The position numbers were made by a program, and so were the translations under genes. A DNA stretch of 63,990 bases, counting the filler. It is 3 parts of 3 records of this genome, joined end to end, with 100 filler letters (N's around TTAATTAATTAA, not from the genome) between each part and the next. Parts side by side here need not be neighbours in the genome. Positions count along the whole stretch, not along the records: positions 1 to 28,298 come from SRR20825010_2225; 2 more parts are not named here. The stretch is one strand, 5' to 3'. Positions 11,272 through 63,480 of this stretch are shown here, one piece after another; within the stretch, counting starts at the first letter, position 1; each line of letters starts with the position of its first letter. Under the pieces are notes generated by a model, which made no database searches, was not told where the DNA came from, and saw only the letters and a list, made by a program, of their open reading frames with translations.

Positions 11272-11892
11272 ATGCGAAAAGTTCTTTTCGGAATCATCAT
11301 CACTTTACTTATTTTATGGACGTATCAATTGTACAAACGCTATGATGAACGTTCTAAATACCTAAAAGAAAATACCGCTTTAATTCAGCAAGAAATAAAA
11401 AATGTTAGCAAATTAATTGTTACTGAAGGACACTTTTCACAAGTATATAATTACAAACAATCAGAAAAAATATTTGCTAATTTATTAACTACCGAAAAAA
11501 AGGCATTGGTAGTAGTAAATGCAGAAGTAACAGTTGCTTACGACCTCAGTAAAATAAATTTTGATGTAGATGAAGAACATCAAACTCTTTATATTACCGA
11601 TATCCCAGCTCCTGAAATTAAAATCTTCCCCGACTTAAAATACTACGATATTTCTGGAGATTATTTGAATCCGTTTAACGCAAACGATTTTAATAAAATA
11701 AAAGATGAAGTCCATATTGCCATTGGAAAAAGAATTGATAATTCTAACCTAAAAGAAAATGCTGAAAACAGATTAATTAGCGAATTATCTCGCTTCTATG
11801 TTCTCACAAATTCTTTAGGATGGAAATTGGTTTACAATAAACAAACAATTACAGACGGAAAAGAATTAGAAAAACTCAATTTTAAGCAATAA
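11272..11892 (+). CDS. DUF4230 family membrane-anchored protein
   Basis: N-terminal TM segment, KLIVTEG, KKALVVVNAEVTVAYDLSK. Confidence 0.8.
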   Translation: MRKVLFGIIITLLILWTYQLYKRYDERSKYLKENTALIQQEIKNVSKLIVTEGHFSQVYNYKQSEKIFANLLTTEKKALVVVNAEVTVAYDLSKINFDVDEEHQTLYITDIPAPEIKIFPDLKYYDISGDYLNPFNANDFNKIKDEVHIAIGKRIDNSNLKENAENRLISELSRFYVLTNSLGWKLVYNKQTITDGKELEKLNFKQ

Positions 11893-11937
11893 TCATGCAT
11901 AAATTCTCTATATTTAAGAAATTATACTAAGACAATA

Positions 11938-12060
11938 ATGACTTTGAAAGGTAAAAGAATAAATATAGCTACGGTGATTATGTGCATATCTACAGTAGTA
12001 ATTTTGGTATATATAGCAGGGTACTTTTTAGGAAAGACTTTATATTATGTCTTACATTAA
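11938..12060 (+). CDS. Small 40-aa single-pass membrane protein, absent from the ORF track (MTLKGKRINIATVIMCISTVVILVYIAGYFLGKTLYYVLH)
   Basis: ATG at 11938 to TAA at 12060, open throughout; basic N-terminus plus a ~22-aa hydrophobic helix; fills the gap between co-oriented genes. Confidence 0.6.
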   Translation: MTLKGKRINIATVIMCISTVVILVYIAGYFLGKTLYYVLH

Positions 12061-12072
12061 GTTATAAGAAAT

Positions 12073-12573
12073 ATGCTAACTAACCAAGAGGCAAAATATC
12101 TATTGGATTTAGAAAAGGTTTTAATCAACCCGAATCAAACAATAGACCTATCGAAAAAGAAAAATAGATTGGAATTGATTTCTCATCAAGATTCAGACCA
12201 CAACTTTTTGGTTGAAATTACAACCAACCAGAAAATAATACTTAAAACTTCGATACATCATTTAGAAAGTAACTTTTATGTTGGGCTTTTAAGAATTGAT
12301 TACAGAGGAGGACATCACAATCCTACAAATATACTACCAACTTTACCTGATATTCTAATTCCGTATGCAGATAAATGGTTTAATCCAACCGAATCTCATA
12401 TGCACATTTATGTTGAAGATTACAGACCTTTGGCTTGGGCAATTCCATTATCTGATATTGATTTCCCTATTAAAGATATTACTCAACCATCTGACTTATC
12501 GGATTTAATATTTAACTTTGCCCGAAGAATAAATTTAAAATCATTAATTAATATTCAACAATCAATACTTTGA
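12073..12573 (+). CDS. DUF6978-like protein, first gene of a two-gene module
   Basis: MLTNQEAKYLLDLEK start, LLRIDYRGGHHNP and HMHIYVEDY..LAWAIP motifs recalled for this family. Confidence 0.7.
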   Translation: MLTNQEAKYLLDLEKVLINPNQTIDLSKKKNRLELISHQDSDHNFLVEITTNQKIILKTSIHHLESNFYVGLLRIDYRGGHHNPTNILPTLPDILIPYADKWFNPTESHMHIYVEDYRPLAWAIPLSDIDFPIKDITQPSDLSDLIFNFARRINLKSLINIQQSIL

Positions 12574-13352
12574 ATTGGGTAAATACATATGTGGACAATT
12601 ATTACAATTGGTTAAGAGAAAAAACTTTTATCCAAAAGGACTCTACCACCGATTGGCATCTAATAAATACCCCTTTTGTTGGAGCATTTAATGACACGAT
12701 TGAGATTTATGCTCAAAAAAATGGAAATCATTTAAAATTAAGCGATAATGGAGAGACAATGTCTAATTTAGAACTTCAAGGTCTACATATTCAAGGTTCA
12801 AAAAGACGTAGAGCAATTTTAGATACAATACTTTTAAACTATGGGGTTAGAGCAGAAAATGATGAATTAACTATTGAAGCAAACAGTGATAATTTTTCAC
12901 AATCAAAGCATAACTTTCTTTCAGCAATAATTGAGATCAATGATTTATATGTATTATCAAAACATAATGTTGCTTCTATTTTCAAAGAAGATGTTAGGGA
13001 TTATTTAGATTCTCTAGATATAATTTATACCCCTGATTTTATATCTAAAGGGACAACAGGATTGGAATTTAATTTTGATTTTCAAATTGCAAAAAAAGAT
13101 AAAGAAATTGTCATTAAATCATTTAATACAATTAACAAATCGAATTTACCAACCTTTCTTTTTTCATGGGACGACATAAAACCAGTTCGAGAGAAAATCA
13201 CAAAAAAGAATGTAAACGCAATTGCTATCATCAATGACATAGGTAAAGAAATTAAAACGGAATTTTTAGATGCACTTAAAGCAAAAAATGCTAACTATAT
13301 TCTGTGGTCTGAACGTGAATCGGAAAAAAGTAAAGAACTTATATCTGTTTAA
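12570..13352 (+). CDS. DUF1828/DUF1829-like protein
   Basis: YYNWLRE, INTPFVGAFNDTIEIY, LSDNGET (DUF1828-like); FKEDV and GTTGLEFNFDFQI (DUF1829-like); TTG start overlaps the upstream TGA stop. Confidence 0.8.
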   Translation: MNWVNTYVDNYYNWLREKTFIQKDSTTDWHLINTPFVGAFNDTIEIYAQKNGNHLKLSDNGETMSNLELQGLHIQGSKRRRAILDTILLNYGVRAENDELTIEANSDNFSQSKHNFLSAIIEINDLYVLSKHNVASIFKEDVRDYLDSLDIIYTPDFISKGTTGLEFNFDFQIAKKDKEIVIKSFNTINKSNLPTFLFSWDDIKPVREKITKKNVNAIAIINDIGKEIKTEFLDALKAKNANYILWSERESEKSKELISV

Positions 13353-13358
13353 AATACT

Positions 13359-13413
13359 ACTTAACAATAGTATTAGTTATTGCTAAAAAATACAACTACT
13401 CATAGCTGAGACC
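13359..13413 (+). repeat. Degenerate attC-like imperfect palindrome
   Basis: RYYYAAC (ACTTAAC) 6 nt after the stop codon, then imperfect arms AGTATTAGTTATTG / CAACTACTCATAGCT; ends GAGACC without a GTTRRRY core. Confidence 0.4.
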
Positions 13414-13446
13414 AAAATAACCACACACTTTTCAAACAGTCAAAAA

Positions 13447-15126
13447 TTAATTTTTGATTCTTTCCTTCACCCAATTCAAAAATTCGTTTTTAAAATCTTT
13501 TACATCCCAAGATTTTCCCTTAGCCATATCATTACTCTTTTCTACAACCGAATTATTTTCGGTTTTCTGATAATGAATACTAATTTTTTCGTCAGAAGAG
13601 GTACTCCAGTAGGTTTCTTTGTATAAAATCATGCCGTTATCTCCAATTTTAACAATTCGGGCACTATAATTACCTCCTCCAGTTTTAGAAGTATAAATAG
13701 CCGACTTATTATCTTTATCAATTAAAATATACGGTGCCATTGAAGGACCTGTAAAAGCTTCATTTTTGACAAAAGTATTCGACTCAGGATTGTACAAATA
13801 AACAGCATACGTAGCATTTCTATTTAAATCAAACCCTTCTGGAAAACTCAAATCTGTATACCCATCAAAGTTTATATCGAAATCGGAAACCTTATAATCT
13901 TGCTCAGATAAATCGCCAATATTAATTGGCTTTTTAATAGGCGAAAGAGGAGCTTCAAAAACAAAAGTAGTATCTTCAACCTTTATCAATTCCTTCTTTG
14001 ACACAGAAACTTCAATAGTAGTTGGATTGGCATTTGTTTTACGCGTATACCGGACCGAATATCGCCATTTAGCATCCATTTTATTGATAGAAAAAGGCTG
14101 ACTATAAACAAAAAATGTAGTGTCTATTAAAGACCTATAATACTGAGGATAGGTGTTTTCAAGGTTAAAAGAATCTATTGCTTTTAGCGTAAATTTAAAG
14201 TCCTTATTATAATGATATTGCTTAATTATTGAATCTATGTTATATGCCACTACATGCTTAGAATTTTTGTCTTGTTTTTCTGAAACTTCAAAAGTTTTAA
14301 AAACCGAATCATTGACAAATGCACTAGAATATTTGGTAGTTTTATCTATAGATTCACTTTTTCCACTAAGCGTAATATTAGTTAATACACTTGCAGTATC
14401 TTGAATAATTAATTTTTCGAGCACACTAGTACTGTCCACAAAATAATAGGTGTTTAAAGCAGTAGCATCTTGTATATCTAACAACCCATTTGAACGATAA
14501 ATTCTAGCGCCGCTAGCCAAGGTATCTAAAATAGAATCTCCTTTAATTAACCTATCTTTTCTAATGGTAAAAAACTTATTCTTATTCTCTACAGTATATT
14601 TAAATTCTTTTTTTGGTAACAAATCGTAGTAAAAATTTGCGGTGCGTGTTGCTTTTCTTATAGAAATTGGGGTGTCTCCAAAATCAATATCGTAGGCACT
14701 AAAATTAGCATTTGTTACACTGTGTGTGTATATTTTATAACGATTCTTAGAAGATTTATCTATTCTAAAAACATTTCCATCAATTCGAGAAGTAATTGTT
14801 TTATTATCCTTAATAATAGCAGTTTGTTTAAACTCTTGTAATTTTCCTAAATGTTTTACTTTTCCGTAAAGATTCATCACTATAAAAGCAGAATCTTTTG
14901 GCCTTTTTATTTTTGCCAGATAATAAATAGAGTCTTCTGTTGAGAGTTGGTTATTCTTAGCTCTCAACATATCTTTAACCCGCTGCTCATCGGTAATTAC
15001 TCGTTCTTTCTTTTGAAGAAGTCTTAGAGAATCGGCTTCTGTAGCCAGTCTAGTTTTATGAGTGTCATCATTTTTACATGCTACATTAGCCAAAATGAAA
15101 CCGATAATAAATAAGTATTTTTTCAA
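13447..15126 (-). CDS. Hypothetical lipoprotein, beta-rich, with a C-terminal DxNFDGYTD Ca-binding-like motif
   Basis: 559-aa ORF with TTG start, lipobox LANVAC, DINFDGYTDL. Confidence 0.7.
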   Translation of the reverse strand: MKKYLFIIGFILANVACKNDDTHKTRLATEADSLRLLQKKERVITDEQRVKDMLRAKNNQLSTEDSIYYLAKIKRPKDSAFIVMNLYGKVKHLGKLQEFKQTAIIKDNKTITSRIDGNVFRIDKSSKNRYKIYTHSVTNANFSAYDIDFGDTPISIRKATRTANFYYDLLPKKEFKYTVENKNKFFTIRKDRLIKGDSILDTLASGARIYRSNGLLDIQDATALNTYYFVDSTSVLEKLIIQDTASVLTNITLSGKSESIDKTTKYSSAFVNDSVFKTFEVSEKQDKNSKHVVAYNIDSIIKQYHYNKDFKFTLKAIDSFNLENTYPQYYRSLIDTTFFVYSQPFSINKMDAKWRYSVRYTRKTNANPTTIEVSVSKKELIKVEDTTFVFEAPLSPIKKPINIGDLSEQDYKVSDFDINFDGYTDLSFPEGFDLNRNATYAVYLYNPESNTFVKNEAFTGPSMAPYILIDKDNKSAIYTSKTGGGNYSARIVKIGDNGMILYKETYWSTSSDEKISIHYQKTENNSVVEKSNDMAKGKSWDVKDFKNEFLNWVKERIKN

Positions 15127-44622: not shown

Positions 44623-46326
44623 TTTTTGAATATCGGACACCTTGAAGAAGCGTTTGGCTATCCGGACACGACAGACCTCATCGTCGGCGTTCTCCTGATT
44701 TTTGTGGTGGTTGAAGCAACCCGCGCGGCATGGGGCTGGACCTTGCCCATTGTCAGTGCGGTCTTTGTTCTGTATTTCATCTTCGGCCACTTGCTTCCTG
44801 GCCAGCTATACCATCGACCATTTGAACTCGATTACATCGTTTCTTACTTAAGCATTGGCTTGTCCGGAATATTTGGCTCCTTTCTCAGTATTTCTGCGAA
44901 TCAGGTATTCCTGTTTGTAGTGTTTGGGGCGCTCCTTGGCGTCATCAAAGTCAATGATTTCTTCTTTGAGGCCGGAAAAATTGCTGGGAAAGTTTTTCAG
45001 GGCGGCCCAGGGCAAACAGCGGTGGTGTCCAGCGCCATGGTTGGCATGGTGTCGGGTGCTGCCGTGGCAAACGTTGCGATCACCGGAGCGTTCACCATTC
45101 CCTTTATGAAGAAGGTCGGTTACAAGCCGGAATTTGCGGGTGCCATTGAAGCGGCTGCATCCACAGGCGGGCAATTGATGCCGCCTGTTATGGGGGCTGC
45201 TGCATTTCTGATGGCATCCTTTCTGGGGGTACCTTACGCGGACATCATGTTGGCTGGCATCATTCCGGCGATTTTGTTTTTCTGGGGCATCATGCTTGGC
45301 GTGCAATTTCTGGCGGTTCGGAACAACATACACCCCCCTTCAGAAGTAATCGACTTCAAGTTGCTCATGCGCAGGTTACCGCTGTTCCTTGTGCCGCTCA
45401 GTGTGCTGATTGCCATGCTCTTAATGCAGTACACCCCGGCCATTGCCGCTTTCTGGGCCATCATTTTGTCGATCGCGCTTGCCTATTCAACACGTGACAC
45501 CAGACCCAAGTTCATGGACCTGCTTAAATGCCTTGCAGGTGGAGCACTCATCGGTGCCCAGATCGGGATTTCCCTGGCCGTGGTCGGGCTGATTGCACAA
45601 ACACTGATCACAACAGGACTTGGCACCAAAATTGCCGGCCTTGTCGAAATTATCAGTGGGGGAAATCTGGTAATTGCACTGCTGGTGACAATGATGGTGT
45701 CGATTGTGCTGGGCTGCGGAGTACCTACCAGTGCGGCATACACTTTGGTTGCAATCGTGGTGGTGCCTATTATTGTGAATATGGGCGTTGAACCACTGTC
45801 GGCGCATTTCTTCGCATTCTACTTTGCGGTTATCTCTGCGCTGACACCACCAGTGGCGCTGGCAGCGCTGGCCGGAGCGGGCATTGCCGGGGCAAACTAT
45901 TTCAAGACATCACTTTCCGCCGCAAAACTTGCGATCTCCGGATTCATCATTCCATTTCTGGTGGTGTTTAATCCGGCGTTGATATTAAAGCCCATTAACT
46001 GGATTTCAGCTCTGGGCACCTTCATTGCGGTTCCCCTCAGCATGACCGCGCTGACCGCAGCGCTTTACGGGTGTGGCCTAACAATCTTCACCACGAAGGA
46101 ACGAATTCTGGCAACGGTTACCGCCGCATTGTTGTTCGGATACTCCGTATTCCGCCAAATCGAAGCACTGCCCCTTGAATACCCGATGTTGGCATTAGGC
46201 TGCCTGGGTTTTGTGGTTTTATTGGTCAGCCAAATAAGGTCAAAACGCCTGGCGGGTGGAGAACATCAAGAAAAGGCACAGCATTCCAGTAATCTTGGCT
46301 CGGCCGCATACAACAACAAATTTTAG
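44623..46326 (+). CDS. TRAP transporter fused permease (4TM/12TM, TAXI-type), 5' truncated
   Basis: [62 protein letters not shown]. Confidence 0.9.
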
Positions 46327-47159
46327 TAAATCGGCGACCCCAAATTCAACTGCTGCAGAATCGTGGTTGAAATTTCTTCGATGGATTTGCTGGTTGAACT
46401 CAACCAGCTAATTCCCTCGCGGCGCATCATGAACTCCGCCGCTTTAATTTCCTGTCTGCAATTTTCAAGCGATGCATATTTGCTACCGGGGCGGCGCTCG
46501 TTGCGAATGACACTCAGCCGTTCTGGCGAAATTGAAAGCCCGAAAATCTTGTCTTTGAACGGGGGCAGGGCAGTTGGCAATTCGCCACGCTCAAAATCTT
46601 CGGGAATCAAAGGGTAGTTCGCCGCCTTGATGCCGTACTGCATGGCCAAATACAAGCTGGTCGGCGTTTTGCCTGAACGTGACACCCCCACCAAAATTAC
46701 ATCGGCAGCCTGCAAGTCTTTGTGGGTTTGCCCGTCGTCGTGCGCCAGGGTGTAGTTGATCGCCTCAATCCGGTTGTTGTACTGCTCGTTGTCGGCAATG
46801 GTGTGGGATCGCCCAATGCGGTGCGTGCTCTTGGCGTTCAACTCCTTTTCCAGCGGCTCTACAAAGGTAAGAAACAGGTCCATGAATACGCCGTTGGCCT
46901 GTTTCACCACATTGTTGATGACGGAATTCACCAAGGTGCTGAACACAATCGGTTTCTGGCCATCGTATTGGGCAATGTCATTGATCCGCTGCCTGGCGGA
47001 AATTGCCTTCACTTCTGAATCAATAAAGGGAATTCGAATCTGCTTGAAACGGATCCCCTCGAATTGTGACAACACTGAATGGCCAAGGGTTTCCGCGGTA
47101 ATACCGGTGCCATCGGACACAAAAACCACCGTGCGTTCCTGGCTAACATTTTCTGACAT
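46323..47159 (-). CDS. ppsR: PEP synthase regulatory protein (kinase/pyrophosphorylase)
   Basis: [39 protein letters not shown]; divergent from ppsA. Confidence 0.93.
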
Positions 47160-47295
47160 GAATCAATCCTGTGTGTGTCGGTGGCAAAAGGTCGGGTTGC
47201 AGTTACAATCATAAAAAGAAATCAGGGGAAATAGTCGATGTGTGTGCACCCAAATCGCCGCATTCACTATTTCTTTTGAACTACAAGGTGAATCA

Positions 47296-49704
47296 ATGTC
47301 AACAAATCAAGGAGTTAGCCCAACAGCTCTGGTTGCACCATTCGAAAAACTTCGAATGGAAGATGTAGAAACTGTCGGCGGTAAGAATTCGTCCCTGGGC
47401 GAAATGATCTCCCAGCTCTCGGAAACCGGTGTGCGCGTGCCCGGGGGCTTTGCCACCACGGCCCATGCCTTCCGTGAATTCCTGAAAGCGAACAATCTGG
47501 TTGAGCGCATTAACGCCAAACTGGACGATTTAAACGTCGAAGATGTTCGGGCGTTGACCCAGGCGGGTGCAGAAATTCGCCAGTGGGTCATTGATGCGCC
47601 TTTGCCAGCCGATCTGGAAAAAGAAATTCGCGAATACTACGCCAACATGATGGCGCAAAGTGGCGGCGATATTTCAGTCGCCGTGCGTTCTTCAGCCACG
47701 GCTGAAGACCTGCCAGATGCTTCATTTGCAGGCCAGCAGGAATCTTTCCTGAACGTGACCGGCATTGACGATGTGCTGGAAAAAATCAAGGAAGTGTTTG
47801 CATCGTTGTACAACGATCGCGCCATTTCCTACCGCGTGCACAAGGGCTTTGCCCACGCCGATGTTGCCTTAAGCGCTGGCGTGCAGCGCATGGTACGTTC
47901 GGACAAAGCTTCTTCGGGCGTAATGTTCACCATGGACACCGAAAGCGGTTTTGATCAGGTGGTGTTCATCACCTCCAGCTACGGCCTGGGTGAAACGGTG
48001 GTGCAGGGCGCGGTAAACCCCGACGAATTTTATGTGTTCAAGCCAAAACTGGCCCAAGGCAAGTACCCTGTCATTCGCCGCCAAATCGGTTCCAAGTTGA
48101 TCAAGATGGAATTTGATTTGCAAAAGGAAAGCGGCAAAAGCGTGCGCACCGTGGACGTACCGGCTGAACAACGCAACCGCTATTCCCTGAACGATGAAGA
48201 TGTGATCGAGTTGGCGAAATACGCCATGATCATCGAGAAACATTACGGTCGCCCCATGGACATTGAATGGGGAAAAGACGGCATTGACGGCAAGCTGTAC
48301 ATTTTGCAAGCCCGCCCGGAAACCGTGAATTCCCAGAAAGACAACGATGTGCAGTTGCGCTACAAGCTGAAAGGCAACTCGGCCATTCTTAGTTCTGGCC
48401 GCGCGATTGGCCAGAAAATTGGTGCAGGTTCTGTGCGCGTAATCAACGATTCCTCAGAAATGGACCGCGTTCAAGCTGGTGATATTCTGGTGACCGACAT
48501 GACTGATCCGAACTGGGAACCGGTCATGAAGCGCGCTGCCGCCATTGTGACCAACCGCGGCGGCCGTACCTGCCACGCAGCGATTATTGCCCGTGAACTG
48601 GGCATTCCTGCGGTAGTGGGTTGTGGTGATGCCACTGAAAAACTGAAAGAAGGCATGCTGGTGACAGTAAGCTGCTCCGAAGGTGACACAGGCTATATTT
48701 ACGACGGCCTGCTGGAAACTGAGGTGAGCGAAGTCAAGCGCGGTGCGCTGCCTGAAATTCCCGTGAAAATCATGATGAACGTGGGCAACCCACAACTGGC
48801 ATTTGAATTCTGCCAGCTGCCCAACAAAGGCGTTGGCTTGGCCCGCCTTGAATTCATTATCAACAACGCGATTGGCATTCACCCCAAGGCCATTCTTGAT
48901 TATCCGAACGTGGATGCCGATTTGAAAAAGGCCGTGGAAAGTGTGGCCCGTGGCCATGCCAGCCCGGTCGCGTTTTTTGTCGACAAATTGGCTGAGGGTG
49001 TGGCCACCATTGCAGCGGCGTTTTACCCCAAGCCAGTGATTGTTCGCATGTCCGATTTCAAATCAAATGAATATCGCAAGTTGATTGGTGGCAGCCGTTA
49101 CGAGCCCGAAGAAGAAAACCCGATGTTGGGCTTCCGGGGTGCGGCCCGTTACATTTCCGAGGAATTCTCGGAATGCTTCGAAATGGAATGTTTGGCCTTG
49201 AAGCGCGTGCGCGAACAGATGGGGCTGGACAACGTACAGATCATGATTCCATTTGTGCGCACCTTGAACCAAGCTGCCAAAGTGGTTGACCTGTTGGCAC
49301 GCAATGGTTTGAAGCGTGGCGAAAACGGCCTGAAAGTGATCATGATGTGCGAAGTGCCATCCAACGCCGTGTTGGCTGATCAGTTCCTGGAATACTTCGA
49401 TGGCTTCTCGATTGGATCCAACGACCTGACCCAACTTACCTTGGGGCTGGATCGCGATTCCGGGCTTGAAATTCTTGCCGCTGATTTCGATGAACGCGAC
49501 CCTGCCGTGCGTGCCTTGCTGAGCAAAGCAATTGAGGCTTGCAAATCCAAGGGCAAGTATGTGGGCATTTGCGGGCAAGGGCCTTCAGACCACCCCGATT
49601 TCGCCTTGTGGCTGGCGGGCGAGGGGATTGAATCCATTTCCCTGAACCCCGACACCGTGATCGACACCTGGCAAAAGCTTGCTGACAAGTTCAACAAGGG
49701 CTAA
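47296..49704 (+). CDS. ppsA: Phosphoenolpyruvate synthase
   Basis: [59 protein letters not shown]; start taken as ATG at 47296. Confidence 0.97.
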
Positions 49705-49727
49705 GCAACGAACAAGGAGAAACACCA

Positions 49728-50150
49728 TTGAGCAATTTTTCACTGTGGCTGGTATTGGCGGGCATTTTATTGATTGCCGAGATCACCACAGGCACGTTTT
49801 ACTTGCTCATGGTGTCGCTTGGGGCGGCCATCGGTTCGCTGATGGCCTACCTGGGTTATGGTCTTGAAATTCAAATTGGCGCTGCCGCCGTGTTTGCGGT
49901 GGCAGGCAGCCTTCTTCTTCGCAACCGTTCGCTCAAGCGAAGCAAAACTGACAAACAGCATGACATGCTCGACATTGGCAACAAGCTTGAAATTTCAAGC
50001 TGGGGCGCTGGTGGCCGGGCAAACGTTCAGTACCGCGGTGCCACCTGGGCAGCGGAAAGCACCGACACCACGCCTGTAACAGGCCTGCATCAAATTGTGG
50101 ATGTTCAGGGCAATGTCCTGAAAGTCAAAAGCATTTCCACACACGAATAA
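49728..50150 (+). CDS. NfeD family membrane protein
   Basis: W......L.AE...GTFYLL, C-terminal OB-fold VQYRGATWAA; upstream of an SPFH gene. Confidence 0.85.
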   Translation: MSNFSLWLVLAGILLIAEITTGTFYLLMVSLGAAIGSLMAYLGYGLEIQIGAAAVFAVAGSLLLRNRSLKRSKTDKQHDMLDIGNKLEISSWGAGGRANVQYRGATWAAESTDTTPVTGLHQIVDVQGNVLKVKSISTHE

Positions 50151-50162
50151 AAGGAGAAACTC

Positions 50163-51071
50163 ATGGAAGTGTCCATAGTCATATTGGTTTTGGCGATTGT
50201 GTTTGTCAGCCAGGCACTGCGAATTGTGCCGCAGCAAAGCGCCTGGGTTGTAGAACGTTTGGGCAAATACGACCGCACCTTGCAAGCCGGTTTGAATTTT
50301 CTGGTGCCGTTCATTGAGCGCGTTTCTTACAAACATTCGCTGAAGGAGATTCCGCTTGATGTACCCAGCCAGGTGTGCATTACACGTGACAACACCCAGC
50401 TACAAGTCGATGGTATTTTGTACTTTCAGGTAACCGATGCCATGCGCGCCAGTTATGGGTCGAGCGATTACATCAGCGCGATTACACAGCTGGCCCAAAC
50501 CACCTTGCGCTCGATTATTGGCCGCATGGAGCTGGACAAAACTTTTGAAGAACGCGACATGATCAACGCCGCCATTGTTCAGGCTTTGGACGAGGCAGCA
50601 ATGAACTGGGGCGTCAAGGTACTTCGCTATGAAATCAAAGACTTAACACCACCACGCGAGATTTTACTTTCAATGCAGGCGCAAATTACTGCGGAACGTG
50701 AAAAGCGTGCCTTGATTGCTGCATCCGAAGGCCGCAAGCAGGAACAGATCAACATTGCCAACGGTGAACGGGAATCATCGATTGCCCGCTCGGAGGGTGA
50801 TCGAATTGCAGCAATCAACCGAGCTCAAGGTGAAGCAGGTGCAATCAAGGAAATTGCAGAAGCCACAGCAGAGGCCTTGCGCAAAGTTGCTTCCGCCGTA
50901 GCAGAACCTGGTGGCATGGAGGCTGTTAATTTGCGGGTTGCAGAACAGTACATCGAAGCGTTTTCAGGCGTGGCCAAAGTGGGCAACACACTGATACTAC
51001 CGGGCGACCTTTCCAATATGGGCTCGATGGTGGCTGCTGCCATGCAGGTGGTCAAGCAGGGCAGCAAATAA
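50163..51071 (+). CDS. SPFH/band 7 protein (QmcA-like)
   Basis: VVERLGKY, QVCITRDN..L.VDG, LAQTTLRS, WGVKVLRYEIKD, AEREKRA. Confidence 0.93.
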   Translation: MEVSIVILVLAIVFVSQALRIVPQQSAWVVERLGKYDRTLQAGLNFLVPFIERVSYKHSLKEIPLDVPSQVCITRDNTQLQVDGILYFQVTDAMRASYGSSDYISAITQLAQTTLRSIIGRMELDKTFEERDMINAAIVQALDEAAMNWGVKVLRYEIKDLTPPREILLSMQAQITAEREKRALIAASEGRKQEQINIANGERESSIARSEGDRIAAINRAQGEAGAIKEIAEATAEALRKVASAVAEPGGMEAVNLRVAEQYIEAFSGVAKVGNTLILPGDLSNMGSMVAAAMQVVKQGSK

Positions 51072-51077
51072 GCCGTG

Positions 51078-52085
51078 CTAGTTGGCTGCGGCTATTTTGC
51101 GCAACGAGACATCTGTATTAACAAGCTTAAGCGTGTTGAGCGTCTTTTTTAGCGCTAGCACGCCTTTGCTGGTGATCAGTGGGCAATATCTCAAATTGAT
51201 TGCTTTCAAATTTCTAAATTTGGAAGATGAATGTAGGTTGCCTAAACCTGCATCAGAAATTTGTGTGCACTGGTCCAGTATCAGTGATTCCAGTTTGTCC
51301 AGTTTTCTCAATTCACGCAGACCTGTGTTTGTAAATTGCGTGCACGCGGTAAGGATCAGGTGTTTAAGCTGATGCATGTTTGGCAGGCAGGCCATAATTT
51401 CATCGTCAACTTGAGGGCAATTCATCAAATCCAGCACTTCAACGTTGTCGATCATATTGGAAAGGTACACCAAACCTGTTTTGCTAATTCCATGGCAACC
51501 CGCAAGCGAAAGATTTTTCAATTTGAGCATATTCGCCAAGTGAAGCAGGTCGCTGTCGTTCAATTGAGTGCAACCCGTTAGGTCCAGATTATTTAGCGCT
51601 GGAAATTTCTGACTCAAAACCCCCAACGCCGCACCAGTTAATTTTTTGCAAAAGGACAAATTAACCCCTGTCACCCTGCTTAAATCAATACTCAGGCTTT
51701 GAACGGAAACAAAATTGTCTAATAGACAATCTGTTAAAGACTTTGGCAAAGACAAATTAAAGCAACCGTTTGGCAACGCTTTAATTTTTATGTCGCCCAG
51801 CTCATCGTTATCAATAAACTGCAGCAAAGCCTCGTCTGCTGAGGTAGTAGCCTGGAAAAATTCCTCAGATAAATTGGCGAACATTTGCCTCGGCGGGTTT
51901 CCAGATGGCCCGGTGGAAGCAATGGAAGGCGGTGCACCCAATGCCATTCTCGCACGGGTGCCAATGAATGCGGAAGCCTTGGCAAGCACCGACATCCCCG
52001 AATGTTCAGACGAGTGGGGATCATTCGCGTTGTCATTTGTACTTGCGGTACTTCTAGATACTGATCCGTGTGCAATTCTATCCAT
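51078..52085 (-). CDS. Cysteine-containing leucine-rich repeat protein (FBXL/GALA-like), candidate secreted effector
   Basis: About 7 repeats of LxxLxLxxCxxIxDxGLxxL; Ser/Thr/Pro-rich disordered N-terminus; visibly more AT-rich than its neighbours. Confidence 0.8.
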   Translation of the reverse strand: MDRIAHGSVSRSTASTNDNANDPHSSEHSGMSVLAKASAFIGTRARMALGAPPSIASTGPSGNPPRQMFANLSEEFFQATTSADEALLQFIDNDELGDIKIKALPNGCFNLSLPKSLTDCLLDNFVSVQSLSIDLSRVTGVNLSFCKKLTGAALGVLSQKFPALNNLDLTGCTQLNDSDLLHLANMLKLKNLSLAGCHGISKTGLVYLSNMIDNVEVLDLMNCPQVDDEIMACLPNMHQLKHLILTACTQFTNTGLRELRKLDKLESLILDQCTQISDAGLGNLHSSSKFRNLKAINLRYCPLITSKGVLALKKTLNTLKLVNTDVSLRKIAAAN

Positions 52086-52120
52086 GGCAAAGCGGGCCTC
52101 AAAAAACTTTAAAAGACCTT

Positions 52121-52148
52121 TTGGTAGCCACTTGCAAGCAAAGGTTCC
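52121..52148 (-). promoter_or_regulatory. hrp-box-like ECF promoter GGAACC-N15-CTACCAA upstream of the LRR gene
   Basis: Minus strand GGAACCTTTGCTTGCAAGTGGCTACCAA; one mismatch to the HrpL consensus GGAACC-N15/16-CCACNNA. Confidence 0.5.
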
Positions 52149-52158
52149 TTCCGTTTTT

Positions 52159-52608
52159 TTATACCCGATGGATCTTCATCAGGCGTTCCTGCTCGCGTTT
52201 CCAGTCTTTGTCTTTTAGTGTGTCGCGCTTGTCGTGCTGTTTTTTGCCTTTGGCCAGCGCCATGTCCACCTTTACACGGCCATTTTTGTAATGCATGTTC
52301 AAAGGCACCAGGGAATAGCCTTTTTGCTCCACCTTACCAATCAAGCGGCTTATTTCTTTCTTGTGCATCAACAGCTTGCGCGTACGGGTATTCACAGGGT
52401 TCACGTGTGTGGACGCGCTGGTCAAGGGCGATATGTGGCAATTCAACAGCCACAGTTCACCATTGCGAACCACAATATGGCTTTCCTTGATTTGCACGCG
52501 GCCGTCGCGAATGGCCTTGACTTCCCAGCCCTCCAGCACAATTCCCGCTTCGTACTTCTCTTCAATGAAGTAATCAAAACCTGCTTTTTTGTTCTCAATA
52601 ATGCTCAT
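52159..52608 (-). CDS. smpB: SsrA-binding protein
   Basis: [42 protein letters not shown]. Confidence 0.97.
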
Positions 52609-52709
52609 GAATTCGACGAATACTTCCCTTGGGTGCGGTGCGGCGTGAAAAACGCTAAAATAGAGAGTTTAATCCTTTCTCCCCACGGGAAACAAACCCG
52701 GCACCGTTC

Positions 52710-53152
52710 ATGGCCATTGTAGAGAAATCCGTATTAGTTCATTTTTCAGCGCATCAAATGTTCAATTTGGTGCGAGCTGTGGCTGACTACCCGCAGTTTT
52801 TGCCCTGGTGTGGCGCGGGAATTATCGAGCCTGTAGAGCCCAATGTTGAAAAAGCAACTGTTGAAATAGCGTTCAAAGGTATCCGGCAAAGTTTTTGCAC
52901 CATGAACAAACTGACACCGCATGAAGAAATTCACATGACCCTGGTTGACGGCCCATTCACGCATCTTGAAGGCACATGGCATTTTCTGGAACTGACACCG
53001 CAGGCCTGCAAAGTGCACTTCAAGCTGGAATATGAATTTTCCAGCAAGCTGCTTGAGCAACTGGTAGGGCCAGTATTTACCGGCCTGGCCAACAGCTTCG
53101 TGGATTCATTCATCAAGCGTGCAGAAACCCTGCACAGCAGCGGGACAGGCCA

Positions 53153-53156
<4 letters not shown>
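52710..53156 (+). CDS. ratA: RatA/PasT (Coq10-like START domain) protein
   Basis: MF.LV..V.DYPQFLPWC, GPF.HLEG.W.F, F.KRA; divergent from smpB as usual. Confidence 0.9.
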
Positions 53157-55062
<1,906 letters not shown>

Positions 55063-55084
55063 GGTGAACTGAGGTTCAGCGCCC

Positions 55085-56077
55085 ATGAAAAAACCCGACA
55101 TCCCTGAGAACGAGGAAGAAAGAACGCGCGCCATTGACGAGTTGGGAATTGTTTACTCCCCCTCCGAGGCGCGATTCGACCGGATCACGCGCCTGGCCTG
55201 TCGGCATTTTGAAGTTCACACTGCATTGGTCACCATTGTCTACAAGGAAATTCAATGGTTTAAGTCGCTTCAGGGAATGAATGCCTGTTCCACGAATCGG
55301 GAAATTTCCTTTTGTGGGCATGCCATTGTGAGCGAAGAAGCCTTGGTGGTTGAAAATGCCTTGCTTGATCCTCGATTCATGGACAATCCGCTGGTTCTCG
55401 ATGGCCCAAAAATTCGGTTCTATGCTGGTCAACCCATCAAAGATGCATTTGGGCTGACCATTGGAACCCTTTGTTTGATTGACAGTGTGCCCCGTGCCTT
55501 CTCGCAAGAAGATCGCCAGGATCTGCGGGATTTTGCACGCCTGATCGAAGCCGAAGTAGCCAAGCCGATCGATGACAACGTGCTGACCCGCTTCATCCGG
55601 TCATTGACTGAAAAGCAGCGCTCACTGTTGATCGACCCCGTTGTGGGCTCGTGGAATAGGCGCGGGTTTGAAGCACTTTTGAACAAGGAAATTGAACACG
55701 CGGCCAACCACGGCGAAGAATTGGCGCTTGTTCTCGTCAAGCTCTCTTCGCTCGATTTGATATTGAACCGCTTTGGTCGCGATCGAATGGTGGATTTCAG
55801 TAAATTCACTGCCTCCATCGTGCGAGATGTTTTACCAAATGGCTCAAGCATTGGCTCGCTCGGTGCCGATGCCTTTGTGGCTGTGTGCTCTGGAATGGTT
55901 GCATCAGAAATCGCTTGCTTGATCGAGCAACTGAAAGCGCGTTTCGGGCAAACCACGCTTGAAACCCATGGTGTGAAAGCCCTTGTTGATGTTGATATCA
56001 CTTTGCTCTCCCTTTCAGGAGACGACCTGAAATGTACATCAGTGCAAGCTGTAGACAAGCTACTGAGCCTTAGCTGA
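55085..56077 (+). CDS. GAF domain + degenerate GGDEF-like domain protein
   Basis: E.ER..A..EL.I....E.RFDRITRLA, SFCGHAI, D.RF.DNPLV...PKIRFYAG.P, GTLCLID; DPVVGSWNRR; LGADAF in place of GGDEF. Confidence 0.8.
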   Translation: MKKPDIPENEEERTRAIDELGIVYSPSEARFDRITRLACRHFEVHTALVTIVYKEIQWFKSLQGMNACSTNREISFCGHAIVSEEALVVENALLDPRFMDNPLVLDGPKIRFYAGQPIKDAFGLTIGTLCLIDSVPRAFSQEDRQDLRDFARLIEAEVAKPIDDNVLTRFIRSLTEKQRSLLIDPVVGSWNRRGFEALLNKEIEHAANHGEELALVLVKLSSLDLILNRFGRDRMVDFSKFTASIVRDVLPNGSSIGSLGADAFVAVCSGMVASEIACLIEQLKARFGQTTLETHGVKALVDVDITLLSLSGDDLKCTSVQAVDKLLSLS

Positions 56078-56134
56078 AACGTTATCCCGCACTGGCCTTC
56101 GGCAACAACCTTTAAGACAATCAAAGAACTTTTC

Positions 56135-57757
56135 ATGATTCATCAAAAAATTCTCGTACTCGACTTTGGTTCACAAGTCACCCAGCTTATTGCGCGCCGA
56201 GTGCGCGAATGTGGCGTATTTTGTGAAATTCTGCCCTGTGATGTTGAGCCACAGCGCATCAAAGACTACGGCGCTTCCGGCATCATTTTGTCGGGCAGCC
56301 ACCAGTCGGCCTATGCCGACAGCACCGACAAAGCGCCTGAACTGGTTTTTGAGCTGGGCGTACCAGTACTGGGCATTTGCTACGGCATGCAAACCATGGC
56401 CATGCAACTGGGTGGCAAAGTGGAAGCGGGTACCGTGCGGGAATTTGGTCACGCACAAATTCGGGCACATGGCCACACCAAATTGTTTGACGGCATTCAG
56501 GATGAAACCAACGAGCTGGGCCATGGCCTGCTGAACGTGTGGATGAGCCACGGCGACAAGGTAACCGAACTGCCAAGTGGCTTCAAACTGATGGCCTCGA
56601 CACCGTCTTGCCCAATCGCAGGCATGGCTGACGAAGTACGTGGTTTTTACGGTGTGCAGTTTCACCCCGAAGTCACCCACACCAAAAAGGGCAAGGAAAT
56701 TCTGGCCCGGTTTGTACGCAATATTTGCGGCTGCAAAGGCGATTGGTCCATGCCCAGCTTCGTCGAAGAAGCCGTGGAAAAAATTCGCCAACAAGTGGGC
56801 ACCGATGAGGTAATTTTGGGCTTGTCGGGCGGGGTCGATTCCTCTGTGGCGGCAGCGCTGATTCACAAAGCCATTGGCGACCAGCTTACCTGCGTGTTCG
56901 TGGATCACGGCCTGTTGCGCTTCAAGGAAGGCGAACAGGTCATGGAAACCTTCGCAAAGCACTTGGGCGTGCGCGTGGTGCATGTGAACGCATGCGAAGA
57001 ATTCATGGGCCAGTTGCAGGGCGTAAGCGACCCCGAAGCCAAACGCAAAATTATCGGCAAAGCGTTCGTAGACGTATTCCAGCGTGAAGCAGGGCAGCGA
57101 GCGAACGCCAAGTGGTTGGCCCAGGGCACCATTTATCCCGATGTTATCGAATCGGCAGGTGCAAAAACAGGCAAAGCCGCCAGCATCAAAAGCCATCACA
57201 ACGTGGGCGGCCTACCCGACACATTGAATTTGAAATTGCTTGAGCCCCTGCGCGACCTGTTCAAAGATGAAGTGCGCAAACTGGGTGTTGAGTTGGGCCT
57301 GGACCCTGAAATGGTGTACCGCCACCCATTCCCTGGCCCCGGCCTGGGCGTTCGAATTTTGGGCGAGGTAAAAGCTGAATATGCGGAAATTCTGCAGTTG
57401 GCTGATGCCGTGTTCATTGAAGAACTGCGCAACACAAAAGCCACGGCAAAAGACGCCGCCGCTGAACTGTGCACCGAAGATCAAATTGGCAAATCCTGGT
57501 ACGACCTGACAAGCCAGGCCTTCGCCGTGTTTTTGCCCGTGAAATCGGTGGGCGTAATGGGCGACGGCCGCACCTACGAATACGTGGTGGCCATTCGCGC
57601 CGTGCAAACCCTGGACTTCATGACCGCACACTGGGCACACCTGCCGTATTCTTTGCTGGGCCGCATTTCCAACCGAATCATCAACGAGGTGCGTGGTGTA
57701 AACCGGGTTGTTTATGACGTGTCTGGAAAGCCGCCAGCCACGATTGAGTGGGAATAA
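56135..57757 (+). CDS. guaA: GMP synthase (glutamine-hydrolysing)
   Basis: [43 protein letters not shown]. Confidence 0.98.
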
Positions 57758-57798
57758 CACACCACCCAACGCCAGTCACTTACCCCAGCCTTACAGGG

Positions 57799-57822
57799 AA
57801 GCCCGCAATTGCGGGCTTTTTT
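57799..57822 (+). terminator. Intrinsic terminator after guaA
   Basis: AAGCCCGC-AATT-GCGGGC followed by a T6 tract. Confidence 0.85.
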
Positions 57823-57950
57823 GCATTCAGGGGGTGAGGTTTGCCCTAATTCCCGAATGAATATTCACATGCCACCATCGTTGACGATATTTAACCATCA
57901 GTGCGGCCCGGCATTGAACGGTACAACGAAAAATACAACATGGAGAACCC

Positions 57951-58721
57951 ATGGCAGAAGTCGTGTTGGAGACAAGGGCGTTGACCAAGGAATTCAAGGG
58001 ATTCACTGCGGTCAGCGACGTGAATTTAAAAGTGCAGCGTGGGCACATCCATGCGCTGATCGGCCCGAATGGTGCCGGTAAAACCACCTGTTTCAATCTG
58101 TTGACAAAATTTTTAACGCCCACATCCGGGCAAATTTTGTTCAACGGCAAGGAAATAACATCGGCCAGACCAGCCCAAATTGCGCGGCAGGGCATCATTC
58201 GATCGTTTCAAATCTCGGCAGTATTTCCCCACCTTACCGTGCTGGAAAACGTGCGCATTGGTCTGCAGCGCCCACTCGGTAATTCGTTTTATTTTTGGCA
58301 AAACGAGAAAAAACTTTCTGTGTTGAATGACAGGGCGATGGAACTGTTGACCTTGGTTGACCTGGAAAGTTTTGCAGACACCATGACAGTGGACTTGCCC
58401 TATGGCCGCAAGCGGGCACTTGAAATAGCAACCACGCTGGGCATGGAACCTGAACTGATGTTGCTGGATGAGCCAACGCAGGGCATGGGCCACGAAGATG
58501 TGCACCGGGTAACCCAACTGATCAAAAAGGTATCTGCTGGCCGAACCATCCTGATGGTGGAACACAATATGAATGTAGTGGCCGGGATATGTGACCGTAT
58601 TTCCGTGTTGCAACGTGGCGCGGTGCTGGCTGAAGGCAATTACGCCGAAGTGTCTCGCAACCCCGCTGTAATGGAAGCCTACATGGGTTCCAGCACAGAC
58701 GTACTGGAGGGCGCGCACTGA
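57951..58721 (+). CDS. HAAT (branched-chain amino acid-type) ABC transporter ATPase, LivG-like
   Basis: [36 protein letters not shown]. Confidence 0.9.
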   Translation: MAEVVLETRALTKEFKGFTAVSDVNLKVQRGHIHALIGPNGAGKTTCFNLLTKFLTPTSGQILFNGKEITSARPAQIARQGIIRSFQISAVFPHLTVLENVRIGLQRPLGNSFYFWQNEKKLSVLNDRAMELLTLVDLESFADTMTVDLPYGRKRALEIATTLGMEPELMLLDEPTQGMGHEDVHRVTQLIKKVSAGRTILMVEHNMNVVAGICDRISVLQRGAVLAEGNYAEVSRNPAVMEAYMGSSTDVLEGAH

Positions 58722-59431
58722 TGGGCACTCCGGCACTTGAAATCAAAGGGCTGCACGCCTGGTATGGTGAATCGCACATTCTTCACGACCTGAACCTGAC
58801 CGTTCAAACCGGCGAAGTCGTGACCTTGTTGGGGCGAAATGGCGCAGGGCGTACCAGCACGCTTCGCGCCATCATGGGTTTGACGGGTTCACGCAAAGGA
58901 TCAATCAAGATCAATGGGGTCGAGGCAATCAACCTGCCCACCCACAAAATTGCGCACTTGGGTGTGGGTTACTGCCCTGAAGAACGCGGCATTTTTTCAT
59001 CGCTTTCTGCTGAAGAAAACCTGATGCTGCCGCCCTTTGTATCCAAAACAGACAAGGGCATGAGCGTTGCTGAAATTTACGAGATGTTTCCCAACCTGGC
59101 CGAACGAAAAAACAGCCAGGGCACGCGCCTGTCGGGCGGTGAACAACAAATGCTGGCCGTTGCGCGAATTCTTCGCACCGGCGCAAAACTGCTGCTGCTG
59201 GATGAAATTTCAGAAGGCCTGGCCCCTGTAATTGTCCAAGCCTTGGCCAAAATGATCACCACCCTGAAAGCCAAAGGCTACACCATCGTGATGGTGGAAC
59301 AGAATTTCCGTTTTGCGGCCCCCTTGGCAGACCGCTTCTACGTGGTGGAACATGGACAAATTGTGGAAGCATTTGCATCCAGGGAACTCGATGAAAAAAT
59401 GCCCGTGCTGCATTCGCTGCTGGGCGTATAA
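58721..59431 (+). CDS. HAAT ABC transporter ATPase, LivF-like
   Basis: GRNGAGRTS, PEERGIF, LSGGEQQMLA, VEQN. Confidence 0.9.
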   Translation: MGTPALEIKGLHAWYGESHILHDLNLTVQTGEVVTLLGRNGAGRTSTLRAIMGLTGSRKGSIKINGVEAINLPTHKIAHLGVGYCPEERGIFSSLSAEENLMLPPFVSKTDKGMSVAEIYEMFPNLAERKNSQGTRLSGGEQQMLAVARILRTGAKLLLLDEISEGLAPVIVQALAKMITTLKAKGYTIVMVEQNFRFAAPLADRFYVVEHGQIVEAFASRELDEKMPVLHSLLGV

Positions 59432-59477
59432 AAAACCAACCTTTCAAGGGATTGGACTTAAACCAAAGGAGATGATG

Positions 59478-60683: not shown

Positions 60684-60708
60684 TTTAGTAAAACCACAAT
60701 AAGACCCA

Positions 60709-60739
60709 AGCTCCCTTTGCTCAAATGGCAAGGGGAGCT
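60709..60739 (+). promoter_or_regulatory. Intercistronic stem-loop after the binding-protein gene (mRNA stabiliser or partial terminator)
   Basis: AGCTCCCTTTGC / GCAAGGGGAGCT inverted repeat without a U-tract. Confidence 0.55.
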
Positions 60740-60757
60740 GCTCCCGGATTCGTATTC

Positions 60758-61642: not shown

Positions 61643-61653
61643 AGGACCTCAAC

Positions 61654-62640: not shown

Positions 62641-62642
62641 AG

Positions 62643-62671
62643 AAAAACCCGGTCCAGCACCGGGTTTTTTT
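62643..62671 (+). terminator. Intrinsic terminator of the ABC operon
   Basis: AAAAACCCGGT / ACCGGG followed by a T7 tract. Confidence 0.88.
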
Positions 62672-62709
62672 GTGTCACACTGACGCCATTCTTGTGGCCA
62701 ATGTTGACT

Positions 62710-63468: not shown

Positions 63469-63480
63469 AACGGAGATGAA

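What the first reader, a model, noticed from the sequence alone, without database searches (positions are those of the whole stretch)
12073..13352. Coupled two-gene DUF6978-like + DUF1828/1829-like module among chromosomal genes: candidate anti-phage or toxin-antitoxin system
Seen: two cytoplasmic genes overlap by 4 nt (TTGA) and sit between a DUF4230/small membrane gene and a convergent lipoprotein gene, with an attC-like remnant directly downstream. Gene 1 has a His-rich set of potentially catalytic residues (RIDYRGGHHNP...HMHIY). Gene 2 has a DUF1828-like N-terminal domain and a C-terminal GxxGxxFxFDF...EIVIK region resembling a degenerate PD-(D/E)xK fold. Recalled, not verified: this family pair occurs in prophages and accessory DNA and has no assigned function that I know of. 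Inference: a compact sensor/effector or toxin/antitoxin defence cassette.
Basis: partly seen in the sequence, partly recalled or inferred. Interest (0 to 1): 0.72.

Follow-up and report, generated by a model that had tools for sequence, protein, structure and literature searches.

The report
Mobile toxin-antitoxin anti-phage candidate cassette
This two-gene insert is a real, mobile copy of an already catalogued but untested anti-phage candidate (PDC-M24); it likely works as a small histidine-rich toxin held in check by its partner, because in relatives the small gene is nearly always the one that breaks alone and the partner is predicted to plug its conserved pocket.

Summary
The two overlapping genes are real: A (12073-12573, DUF6978) and B (12570-13352, DUF1828+DUF1829). 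They are PADLOC's untested phage-defence candidate PDC-M24, which this scan has already met on other DNA (8 notes listed). The pair is in 1 of 10 genomes of the genus, in a slot that is empty or holds other cargo (once a ParE toxin-antitoxin pair) in the others. In other Flavobacteriaceae it is one two-gene cassette of integron-like arrays; here only worn ends remain, so the 'attC-like remnant' is correct. What this copy adds is a role assignment. Over two locus sets, A alone is broken or lost 17 times, B alone once, both 7 times. A complex model (0.85; best control 0.33) puts a hairpin of B's chaperone-like DUF1828 domain on A's invariant Arg/His pocket. B's restriction-enzyme-like domain lacks the (D/E)xK acid. 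Best reading: a type II toxin-antitoxin pair, A the toxin (no solved relative found, weak TumE-like motif), B the antitoxin, likely anti-phage (12 of 77 homologous loci adjoin restriction-modification genes; prophage copies exist). Toxicity, target, trigger and protection are untested.

The parts
12073..12573 (+). Gene A, DUF6978 / PDC-M24A, 166 aa; inferred toxin. Alpha+beta model with invariant K15, R74, H81, P84, H109, H111, W122 (D76, N83 at 90% or more)
   Evidence: Pfam 95 bits; PADLOC PDC-M24A E 2.9e-77 over 1-166/166; conservation in 149 sequences; AlphaFold2 pLDDT 96.2; no clear solved relative
12570..13352 (+). Gene B, DUF1828 (type III secretion chaperone/YbjN-like fold) + DUF1829 (PD-(D/E)xK fold lacking the third-strand acid), PDC-M24B, 260 aa, TTG start overlapping A's stop; inferred antitoxin
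   Evidence: Pfam; PADLOC E 1.3e-103; model pLDDT 92.7; fold matches AF1548 Z 11.5, Can2 Z 10.9 for residues about 133-259, chaperone folds Z 9.0 and 8.9 for residues 11-132; motif counts
12061..12068 (+). Worn cassette core site (GTT plus 5 nt) just before A's start codon
   Evidence: Homologous position to the core in cassette-borne copies; only 6 of 10 complementary to the 3' end here against 9-10 of 10 in 11 of 74 loci
13353..13386 (+). Left-arm remnant of a Bacteroidota attC-like cassette site (inverse core with a short deletion; right arm lost)
   Evidence: Alignment to post-stop DNA of L035-L039, L056, L057 with shuffle control; not detected by a full-site profile
11938..12060 (+). 40-codon hydrophobic ORF inside the same inserted stretch; not part of the conserved pair
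   Evidence: Translation; not seen upstream of A in the 46 homologous loci printed (L034 is the same locus); no room for it at the empty site of genus relatives
11272..11892 (+). DUF4230 gene, conserved left flank of the variable slot (context only)
   Evidence: Pfam; present in 10 of 10 genus genomes
13447..15126 (-). XAC2610-related lipoprotein-type gene, conserved right flank (context only)
   Evidence: NCBIfam NF047539 50 bits, cut-off 35; follows DUF4230 directly in 4 of 9 other genus genomes

Best explanation
The pair is a mobile copy of the catalogued candidate PDC-M24 and is likely a type II toxin-antitoxin module in which A (DUF6978) is the toxin and B (DUF1828-DUF1829) the antitoxin, probably serving as abortive anti-phage defence. 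Shown: the operon, its strict linkage, its patchy spread and cassette ends, the one-sided gene decay, the folds of B. Predicted: B's DUF1828 hairpin (residues 39-43) docks on A's invariant pocket (R74, D76, H81-P84, H111, W122). Inferred: that pocket is an active site (a His-dependent nuclease or hydrolase, perhaps an RNase as proposed for TumE); B's restriction-like DUF1829 domain is catalytically weak or dead and binds DNA or a phage product; infection frees A, which arrests the cell. This copy arrived as a cassette of the host's integron-like system and has lost its recombination site.
For: Decay is one-sided. DUF1828-seeded set (55 matches besides the window's own locus, from 401 genomes): both intact 33, A broken or absent with B intact 14 (8 genera; in one of them B runs off the contig), both broken 5, A intact with B broken 1, cut by contig end 2 (14 vs 1, binomial p 0.001; 7 vs 0 for stops and frameshifts only, p 0.016). 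A-seeded set (79 loci): both intact 68, A alone broken 3, both 2, B alone 0, cut by contig end 6. A-seeded searches of the same 401 genomes found no intact A without B. The single exception (L167) has its insertion after the DUF1828 domain, leaving the predicted plug intact. Complex model: score 0.85, best of 3 controls 0.33; the mark was reached by 51 of 78 solved complexes and 2 of 108 mismatched pairs; runs agree in at least 92% of contacts, partner pLDDT at least 90. 8 of A's 13 most conserved residues are in that interface; A's interface is more conserved than the rest of A (0.59 vs 0.46), B's is not (0.56 vs 0.59). The slot holds a ParE toxin pair in G003. Defence context: RM genes among the two nearest ORFs on either side in 12 of 77 loci scanned; 18 phage records carry B, in Lj965 between repressor and integrase; PDC listing rests on embedding in RM, BREX or DISARM; DefensePredictor scores an E. 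coli 185-aa + DUF1828 operon as defensive, log-odds 4.9 and 5.6. Analogy: in HipA-DUF3037 (DS-6/HipAD) the second protein is the antitoxin and is annotated with DUF1829.
Against: No toxicity, rescue or phage assay is on record in the papers searched. The decay counts include related genomes (7 of the 14 are in one genus) and MAG assemblies; B kept for a function of its own would give the same asymmetry; the DUF1828-seeded set cannot show total loss of B. One locus keeps an intact A beside a split B (L167). B is more conserved than A and starts with a weak TTG/GTG coupled behind A, the order and ratio more usual for a downstream toxin; B keeps E140, D141 and D170 (77, 84, 84 of 85), which could form a non-canonical site. 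7 of 44 blind neighbouring genes also pass the complex test. A's likeness to TumE is weak (hhalign probability 12.8%, E 0.002). This copy and 38 of the 39 closest loci scanned have no RM neighbour, and no background rate for RM adjacency was computed. The DUF1829 link to HipAD is weak (HHpred 77.85% in the paper's Table S8; 0 of 6 Bacteroidota long HipA partners hit DUF1829 or my B profile).
Confidence: 0.55

Rival explanations
1. Same toxin-antitoxin wiring, but the module is an addiction element that stabilises cassette arrays, prophages and RM loci, with no direct anti-phage role.
For: Two-gene cassette in a 19-site array in L038; TA cassettes are known to stabilise sedentary integrons (passage); most copies sit alone between housekeeping genes; the host array carries a Gp49/RelE-HTH pair.
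Against: Repeated insertion between hsdM, hsdS and hsdR genes, position in prophage lysogeny modules, a large antitoxin with an extra nuclease-fold domain and no HTH/RHH domain in Pfam.
Confidence: 0.18
2. B is the effector, a non-canonical PD-(D/E)xK nuclease, and A is its sensor, activator or inhibitor.
For: B's C-domain matches Can2/Card1, Bax1 and type II restriction enzymes; E140, D141, D170 and D223 are conserved; B is the more conserved and downstream gene.
Against: The (D/E)xK acid is replaced by V/L/I/F in 81 of 85 sequences and K183 is lost in the distant clade. If A were an inhibitor, intact B beside broken A (17 loci) should be lethal; if A were a harmless activator, B-only loss should be as common as A-only loss, yet it is 1 vs 17. 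The modelled interface lies on DUF1828, barely on the nuclease domain.
Confidence: 0.15
3. A non-toxic obligate heterodimer (an enzyme with a chaperone) with a stress or repair role, or cargo of little value.
For: DUF1828 has the YbjN/T3SS-chaperone fold, whose members are peptide-binding chaperones (passage); many decayed copies.
Against: Does not explain one-sided decay, embedding in RM operons or prophage control regions; strong purifying selection.
Confidence: 0.12

Closest known systems
PDC-M24 (PADLOC-DB v2 phage defence candidate; Payne et al. 2024, bioRxiv 10.1101/2024.01.29.577857)
   Same: Both genes match the M24A and M24B profiles over their full length, in order and adjacent; RM-embedded homologues recovered.
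   Different: PDCs were predicted, not tested, in the parts of the paper read, and those parts give no roles. This copy is not embedded in a defence system but is a worn cassette in a variable chromosomal slot.
HipAD / DS-6 / PDC-M66 (HipA kinase + DUF3037 protein; PMC13092281, PMC12548924)
   Same: Toxin-first two-gene anti-phage TA; second gene is the antitoxin (its deletion is toxic) and is annotated DUF3037 + DUF1829.
   Different: Toxin is a kinase, not DUF6978; N-domain is DUF3037, not DUF1828; the shared DUF1829 call is weak (77.85%) and I could not reproduce it in 6 Bacteroidota partners.
TumE-TumA toxin-antitoxin superfamily (DUF6516, PF20126; PMC10584680)
   Same: Small alpha+beta toxin without a confident PDB match, two helices on an antiparallel sheet (passage); R-x-D ... 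H ... H-x-H pattern invariant in 8 TumE sequences as in A; many unrelated antitoxins.
   Different: 0 of 149 A homologues hit PF20126 at E 0.1; profile match only 12.8% probability and 0.4% for the distant clade; A is about 50 residues longer; partner is unrelated to TumA/RelB.
Integron gene cassettes; rAID-1 arrays of Bacteroidales (bioRxiv 10.1101/471110)
   Same: Complementary, covarying core and inverse-core ends and a 125-190 nt palindrome around the pair; arrays start behind a tyrosine recombinase in the nearest genome.
   Different: The recombinase is below the integron-integrase cut-off (185 vs 265 bits); homology to rAID-1 recombinases was not tested; in the window the site is decayed and no integrase is adjacent.

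Membership tests
PDC-M24 (PADLOC) | PDC-M24A profile match | tested here: met
   E 2.9e-77, 1-166 of 166
PDC-M24 (PADLOC) | PDC-M24B profile match, adjacent and co-directional | tested here: met
   E 1.3e-103, 1-252 of 255; 4-nt overlap
PDC-M24 (PADLOC) | Homologues embedded in RM/BREX/DISARM | tested here: met
   RM genes within two ORFs in 12 of 77 loci, several between hsd genes; not this copy
Anti-phage defence system | Lowers phage plaquing | not testable with these tools
   No assay found in searches; predicted operon not among cloned units in DefensePredictor Table S6
Type II toxin-antitoxin | Two-gene, translationally coupled operon | tested here: met
   B follows A in 78 of 79 loci, the other cut by a contig end; overlap or near-abutting starts
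Type II toxin-antitoxin | Direct protein-protein binding that blocks the toxin | tested here: inconclusive
   Model supports, does not show: 0.85 vs best control 0.33; 51 of 78 solved and 2 of 108 mismatched pairs reach the mark
Type II toxin-antitoxin | Antitoxin is not lost while toxin is intact (genomic proxy) | tested here: met
   A-only 17, B-only 1, both 7 over two locus sets
Type II toxin-antitoxin | Toxin alone arrests growth; antitoxin rescues | not testable with these tools
   Needs expression assay
Type II toxin-antitoxin | Antitoxin binds own promoter | not tested
   No HTH/RHH in Pfam; no clear promoter
TumE (DUF6516) toxins | PF20126 match | tested here: not met
   0 of 149 members at E 0.1
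TumE (DUF6516) toxins | Remote homology and R-x-D..H..H-x-H pattern | tested here: inconclusive
   Pattern alike; hhalign 12.8%, E 0.002 with an 8-sequence TumE profile
HipAD / DS-6 | HipA kinase plus DUF3037 domain | tested here: not met
   Neither domain in A or B
Active PD-(D/E)xK nuclease | Restriction-endonuclease fold | tested here: met
   Z 11.5 (rmsd 3.1, 110 aligned) to AF1548, Z 10.9 (rmsd 2.7, 115) to Can2; Foldseek E 2.9e-5 to VC1899
Active PD-(D/E)xK nuclease | (D/E)xK catalytic motif | tested here: not met
   Position 181 is V/F/L/I in 81 of 85; K183 in 66 of 85; D170 and E140 kept
Integron-type gene cassette | Complementary core and inverse core plus palindrome, in homologous loci | tested here: met
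   11 of 74 loci at 9-10 of 10 (shuffles mean 0.2, max 2); cross-pairing 32 of 32 within type, 8 of 78 between types; fold z -6.6 and -6.0 for two of five sites
Integron-type gene cassette | Intact recombination site at this copy | tested here: not met
   6 of 10 complementarity; no profile hit; left arm only
Classical integron | IntI integrase | tested here: not met
   Array recombinase in G001 scores 185 bits vs TIGR02249 cut-off 265; none next to the pair

The most novel reading that the evidence does not exclude
DUF6978 is a new family of histidine-dependent nuclease toxins, without a solved relative, blocked by a hairpin of a type III secretion chaperone-fold antitoxin domain, while the attached dead restriction-enzyme domain (DUF1829) is a phage sensor that has been grafted onto unrelated toxins (DUF6978 here, HipA kinase in HipAD); in Flavobacteriaceae the system spreads as a cassette of a non-IntI integron-like array.
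Probability: 0.25. Interest if true: 0.72.

Novelty: new member of a known kind. Interest (0 to 1): 0.45.

Why it matters
The pair is widespread (DUF1828 in 51 of 401 genomes of the phylum; prophages of Gram-positive bacteria and an archaeal virus) and has been predicted as defence twice without a test or a mechanism. Naming the likely toxin, its pocket residues and the antitoxin hairpin turns it into a cheap, sharp experiment, and warns that cloning A without B may fail. If true it adds a toxin family with no solved relative and a chaperone-fold antitoxin. As a locus it is an ordinary further copy.

Tried and rejected
No whole genome is held for the window; the nearest genome G001 has the same locus and was used instead. 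Solved-structure searches for A gave nothing clear: profile search E 1, Foldseek PDB best E 0.54, VIA best Z 5.5, viral library best E 0.028 to an uncharacterised phage protein; absence is not proof of a new fold. NCBIfam gave no family for A or B; PHROGs only unknown-function families; the ESM Atlas returned DUF6978 clusters for A and nothing at 0.9 or more for B once its own families were left out. Core-gene reading rejected (1 of 10). Defence-island reading for this copy rejected. PADLOC hits of neighbouring ABC transporters to mad3/AriA and of a dGTPase were not counted as defence. Expression could not be judged: the RNA-labelled runs are contigs only and short. Promoter scan below shuffle level, no terminator. 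Simple repeat search found no attC hairpin at the window. Homology between B and the HipA partners was sought and not found. Weak A-like hits in G158 and G348 were not real homologues. Not in print: 'PDC-M24' in 0 papers; DUF1828/DUF1829/DUF6978 in 6 papers, of which I opened only DefensePredictor; bioRxiv supplements (Payne Tables S3-S8, which define the PDCs) are closed, and DefensePredictor's supplementary PDF and Table S1 could not be read and Table S4 is cut, so a test reported there or in subscription journals would have been missed.

Full report
Observation. The window (a Flavobacteriaceae chromosome; the named record L034 carries the same locus at 99% protein identity) has two co-directional ORFs, A at 12073-12573 (166 aa) and B at 12570-13352 (260 aa, TTG start), overlapping by TTGA. 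A is DUF6978; B is DUF1828 (34-123) plus DUF1829 (161-249). Both match PADLOC's PDC-M24A and PDC-M24B over their length. Both are under purifying selection.

What is known. Payne et al. [quoted passage not shown] No paper in the library names PDC-M24. DefensePredictor (PMC13092281; passages, section 7 and supplement searches) scores an E. coli operon of a 185-aa gene overlapping a DUF1828 gene as defensive, but that operon is not in its table of cloned units. This scan has noted the pair before on other DNA (8 notes shown), always as an untested candidate.

Mobility. DUF6978 is in 1 of 10 genomes of the genus while the flanking DUF4230 gene is in 10 of 10. In the nine others the slot between DUF4230 and the convergent lipoprotein-type gene is empty in 4, holds other cargo in 4 (a ParE toxin pair in G003) and is rearranged in 1. 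A and B are 93% and 95% identical to copies in L035, whereas DUF4230 is 64-87% identical within the genus. In 79 related loci B follows A in 78, the last being cut by a contig end, and the flanks are mostly unrelated housekeeping genes.

Cassette ends. In 11 of 74 loci a GTT-led core just before A's start is complementary (9-10 of 10) to an inverse core just after B's stop; shuffles give 0.2 on average, and the ends covary (cross-pairing 32 of 32 within a core type, 8 of 78 between types). In L038 the pair is one unit of an array with 19 palindromic sites in 20 kb and none between A and B. The nearest genome has such arrays elsewhere, each behind a 368-aa tyrosine recombinase below the IntI cut-off. 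In the window only a worn core (12061-12068) and about 34 nt of the left arm (13353-13386) remain. I saw these ends before reading earlier notes of this scan that describe the same array system; Ross et al. describe similar rAID-1 arrays in Bacteroidales (passages; a later abstract). Integron reviews were read as passages only.

Anatomy. A folds confidently (pLDDT 96.2) into a sheet with flanking helices and has no clear solved relative. K15, R74, H81, P84, H109, H111 and W122 are invariant in 149 sequences. Distant clades found upstream of other DUF1828 genes keep a similar R..N/D..H..N..HxH pattern. TumE toxins, translation-inhibiting toxins with two helices on an antiparallel sheet (PMC10584680, passages), share the pattern, but the profile match is weak. 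B (pLDDT 92.7) has an N-domain with the type III secretion chaperone/YbjN fold (Z 9.0 and 8.9, about 105-110 aligned, rmsd 3.5-3.7) and a C-domain with the PD-(D/E)xK fold (Z 11.5). E140, D141 and D170 are kept, the (D/E)xK acid is not, and the lysine is lost in the distant clade. Chaperone-fold proteins have been predicted as antitoxins elsewhere (PMC13092808, passages).

Which is the toxin. I scored every DUF1828 match in 401 genomes (56 matches, 55 without the window's own locus): both intact 33, A broken or absent with B intact 14, both broken 5, A intact with B broken 1, undetermined 2. In the A-seeded set of 79: both intact 68, A alone 3, both 2, B alone 0, cut 6. Reciprocal A-seeded searches of the same 401 genomes gave 27 and 31 matches; of those without a listed DUF1828 match, six were fetched and were cut by contig ends, fragments or spurious, and a seventh (G410, 3 bases from a contig end) was not fetched. 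B is the larger target, so random decay would favour B. One-sided loss is the pattern expected (established TA genetics) if A is harmful without B. Limits: related genomes, MAG errors, ascertainment, and the possibility that B is useful alone. The exception L167 is split after DUF1828. The complex model scored 0.85 against a best control of 0.33 (mark reached by 51 of 78 solved complexes, 2 of 108 mismatched pairs and 7 of 44 blind neighbours; runs agree in at least 92% of contacts; partner pLDDT at least 90; alignments not used) and lays B residues 39-43 on A's R74, D76, H81-P84, H111 and W122. A's interface is more conserved than the rest of A, B's is not, as expected if the pocket has a job besides binding B.

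Defence. RM genes lie within two ORFs in 12 of 77 loci scanned (264 proteins), but in only 1 of the 39 closest scanned, and no background was computed. B homologues occur in 18 of 50,697 phage records, in Lj965 behind the repressor and before superinfection-exclusion and integrase genes, overlapped by a 152-aa gene whose family I did not test. The validated HipA-DUF3037 system is a toxin-first anti-phage TA whose second protein is the antitoxin (PMC12548924, passages) and is weakly annotated DUF1829; I could not confirm the shared domain.

Verdict. A further copy of a catalogued, untested candidate. The added value is the inferred wiring (A toxin, B antitoxin that plugs it; about 0.7 for TA wiring, 0.55 with an anti-phage role) and the cassette route of spread. 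Interest 0.45.

Noticed in passing
G001:C1:3880345-3891950 (L225) and C1:2764049-2770790 (L226): Two integron-like arrays in the nearest genome: a 368-aa tyrosine recombinase (below IntI cut-off) followed by cassettes with 9 and 2 palindromic sites; cargo includes a Gp49/RelE-HTH pair and ArsR-type and mercury-transport-like genes (the last two named by eye).
   Followed up: partly
L038 1-20498: About 19 attC-like sites in 20 kb in Mesonia ostreae, with a duplicated 157-aa cassette just before the pair.
   Followed up: partly
window 11893-13446 and L169-L177: The DUF4230 / lipoprotein junction is a variable slot in the genus: empty, a ParE pair, two unknown genes (245 and 442 aa), or one reverse-strand gene.
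   Followed up: partly
L168:1077-2100: An in-frame deletion fuses the first half of A (without its HxH) to the last two-thirds of B, disabling both in one step.
   Followed up: partly
L167: A short palindromic insertion splits B exactly between DUF1828 and DUF1829 while A stays intact: a natural test of which domain neutralises A.
   Followed up: partly
window 45000-63990: GC rises from about 35-40% to 46-56% over the last 19 kb, probably an integrated element; not examined.
   Followed up: no
window 11938-12060: 40-codon hydrophobic ORF ending directly at the cassette core; origin unknown.
   Followed up: partly
L088:2794-4542: The pair sits between hsdS and a second candidate system, PDC-M19AB.
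   Followed up: no
L207 (G001:C1:1800059-1803415): The nearest genome also has a HipA-like kinase (named by eye) with a short, single-domain DUF3037 partner.
   Followed up: no
L194 (Halorubrum virus Humcor1): An archaeal virus carries a DUF1828 gene behind a 138-aa unknown gene next to orc1.
   Followed up: no
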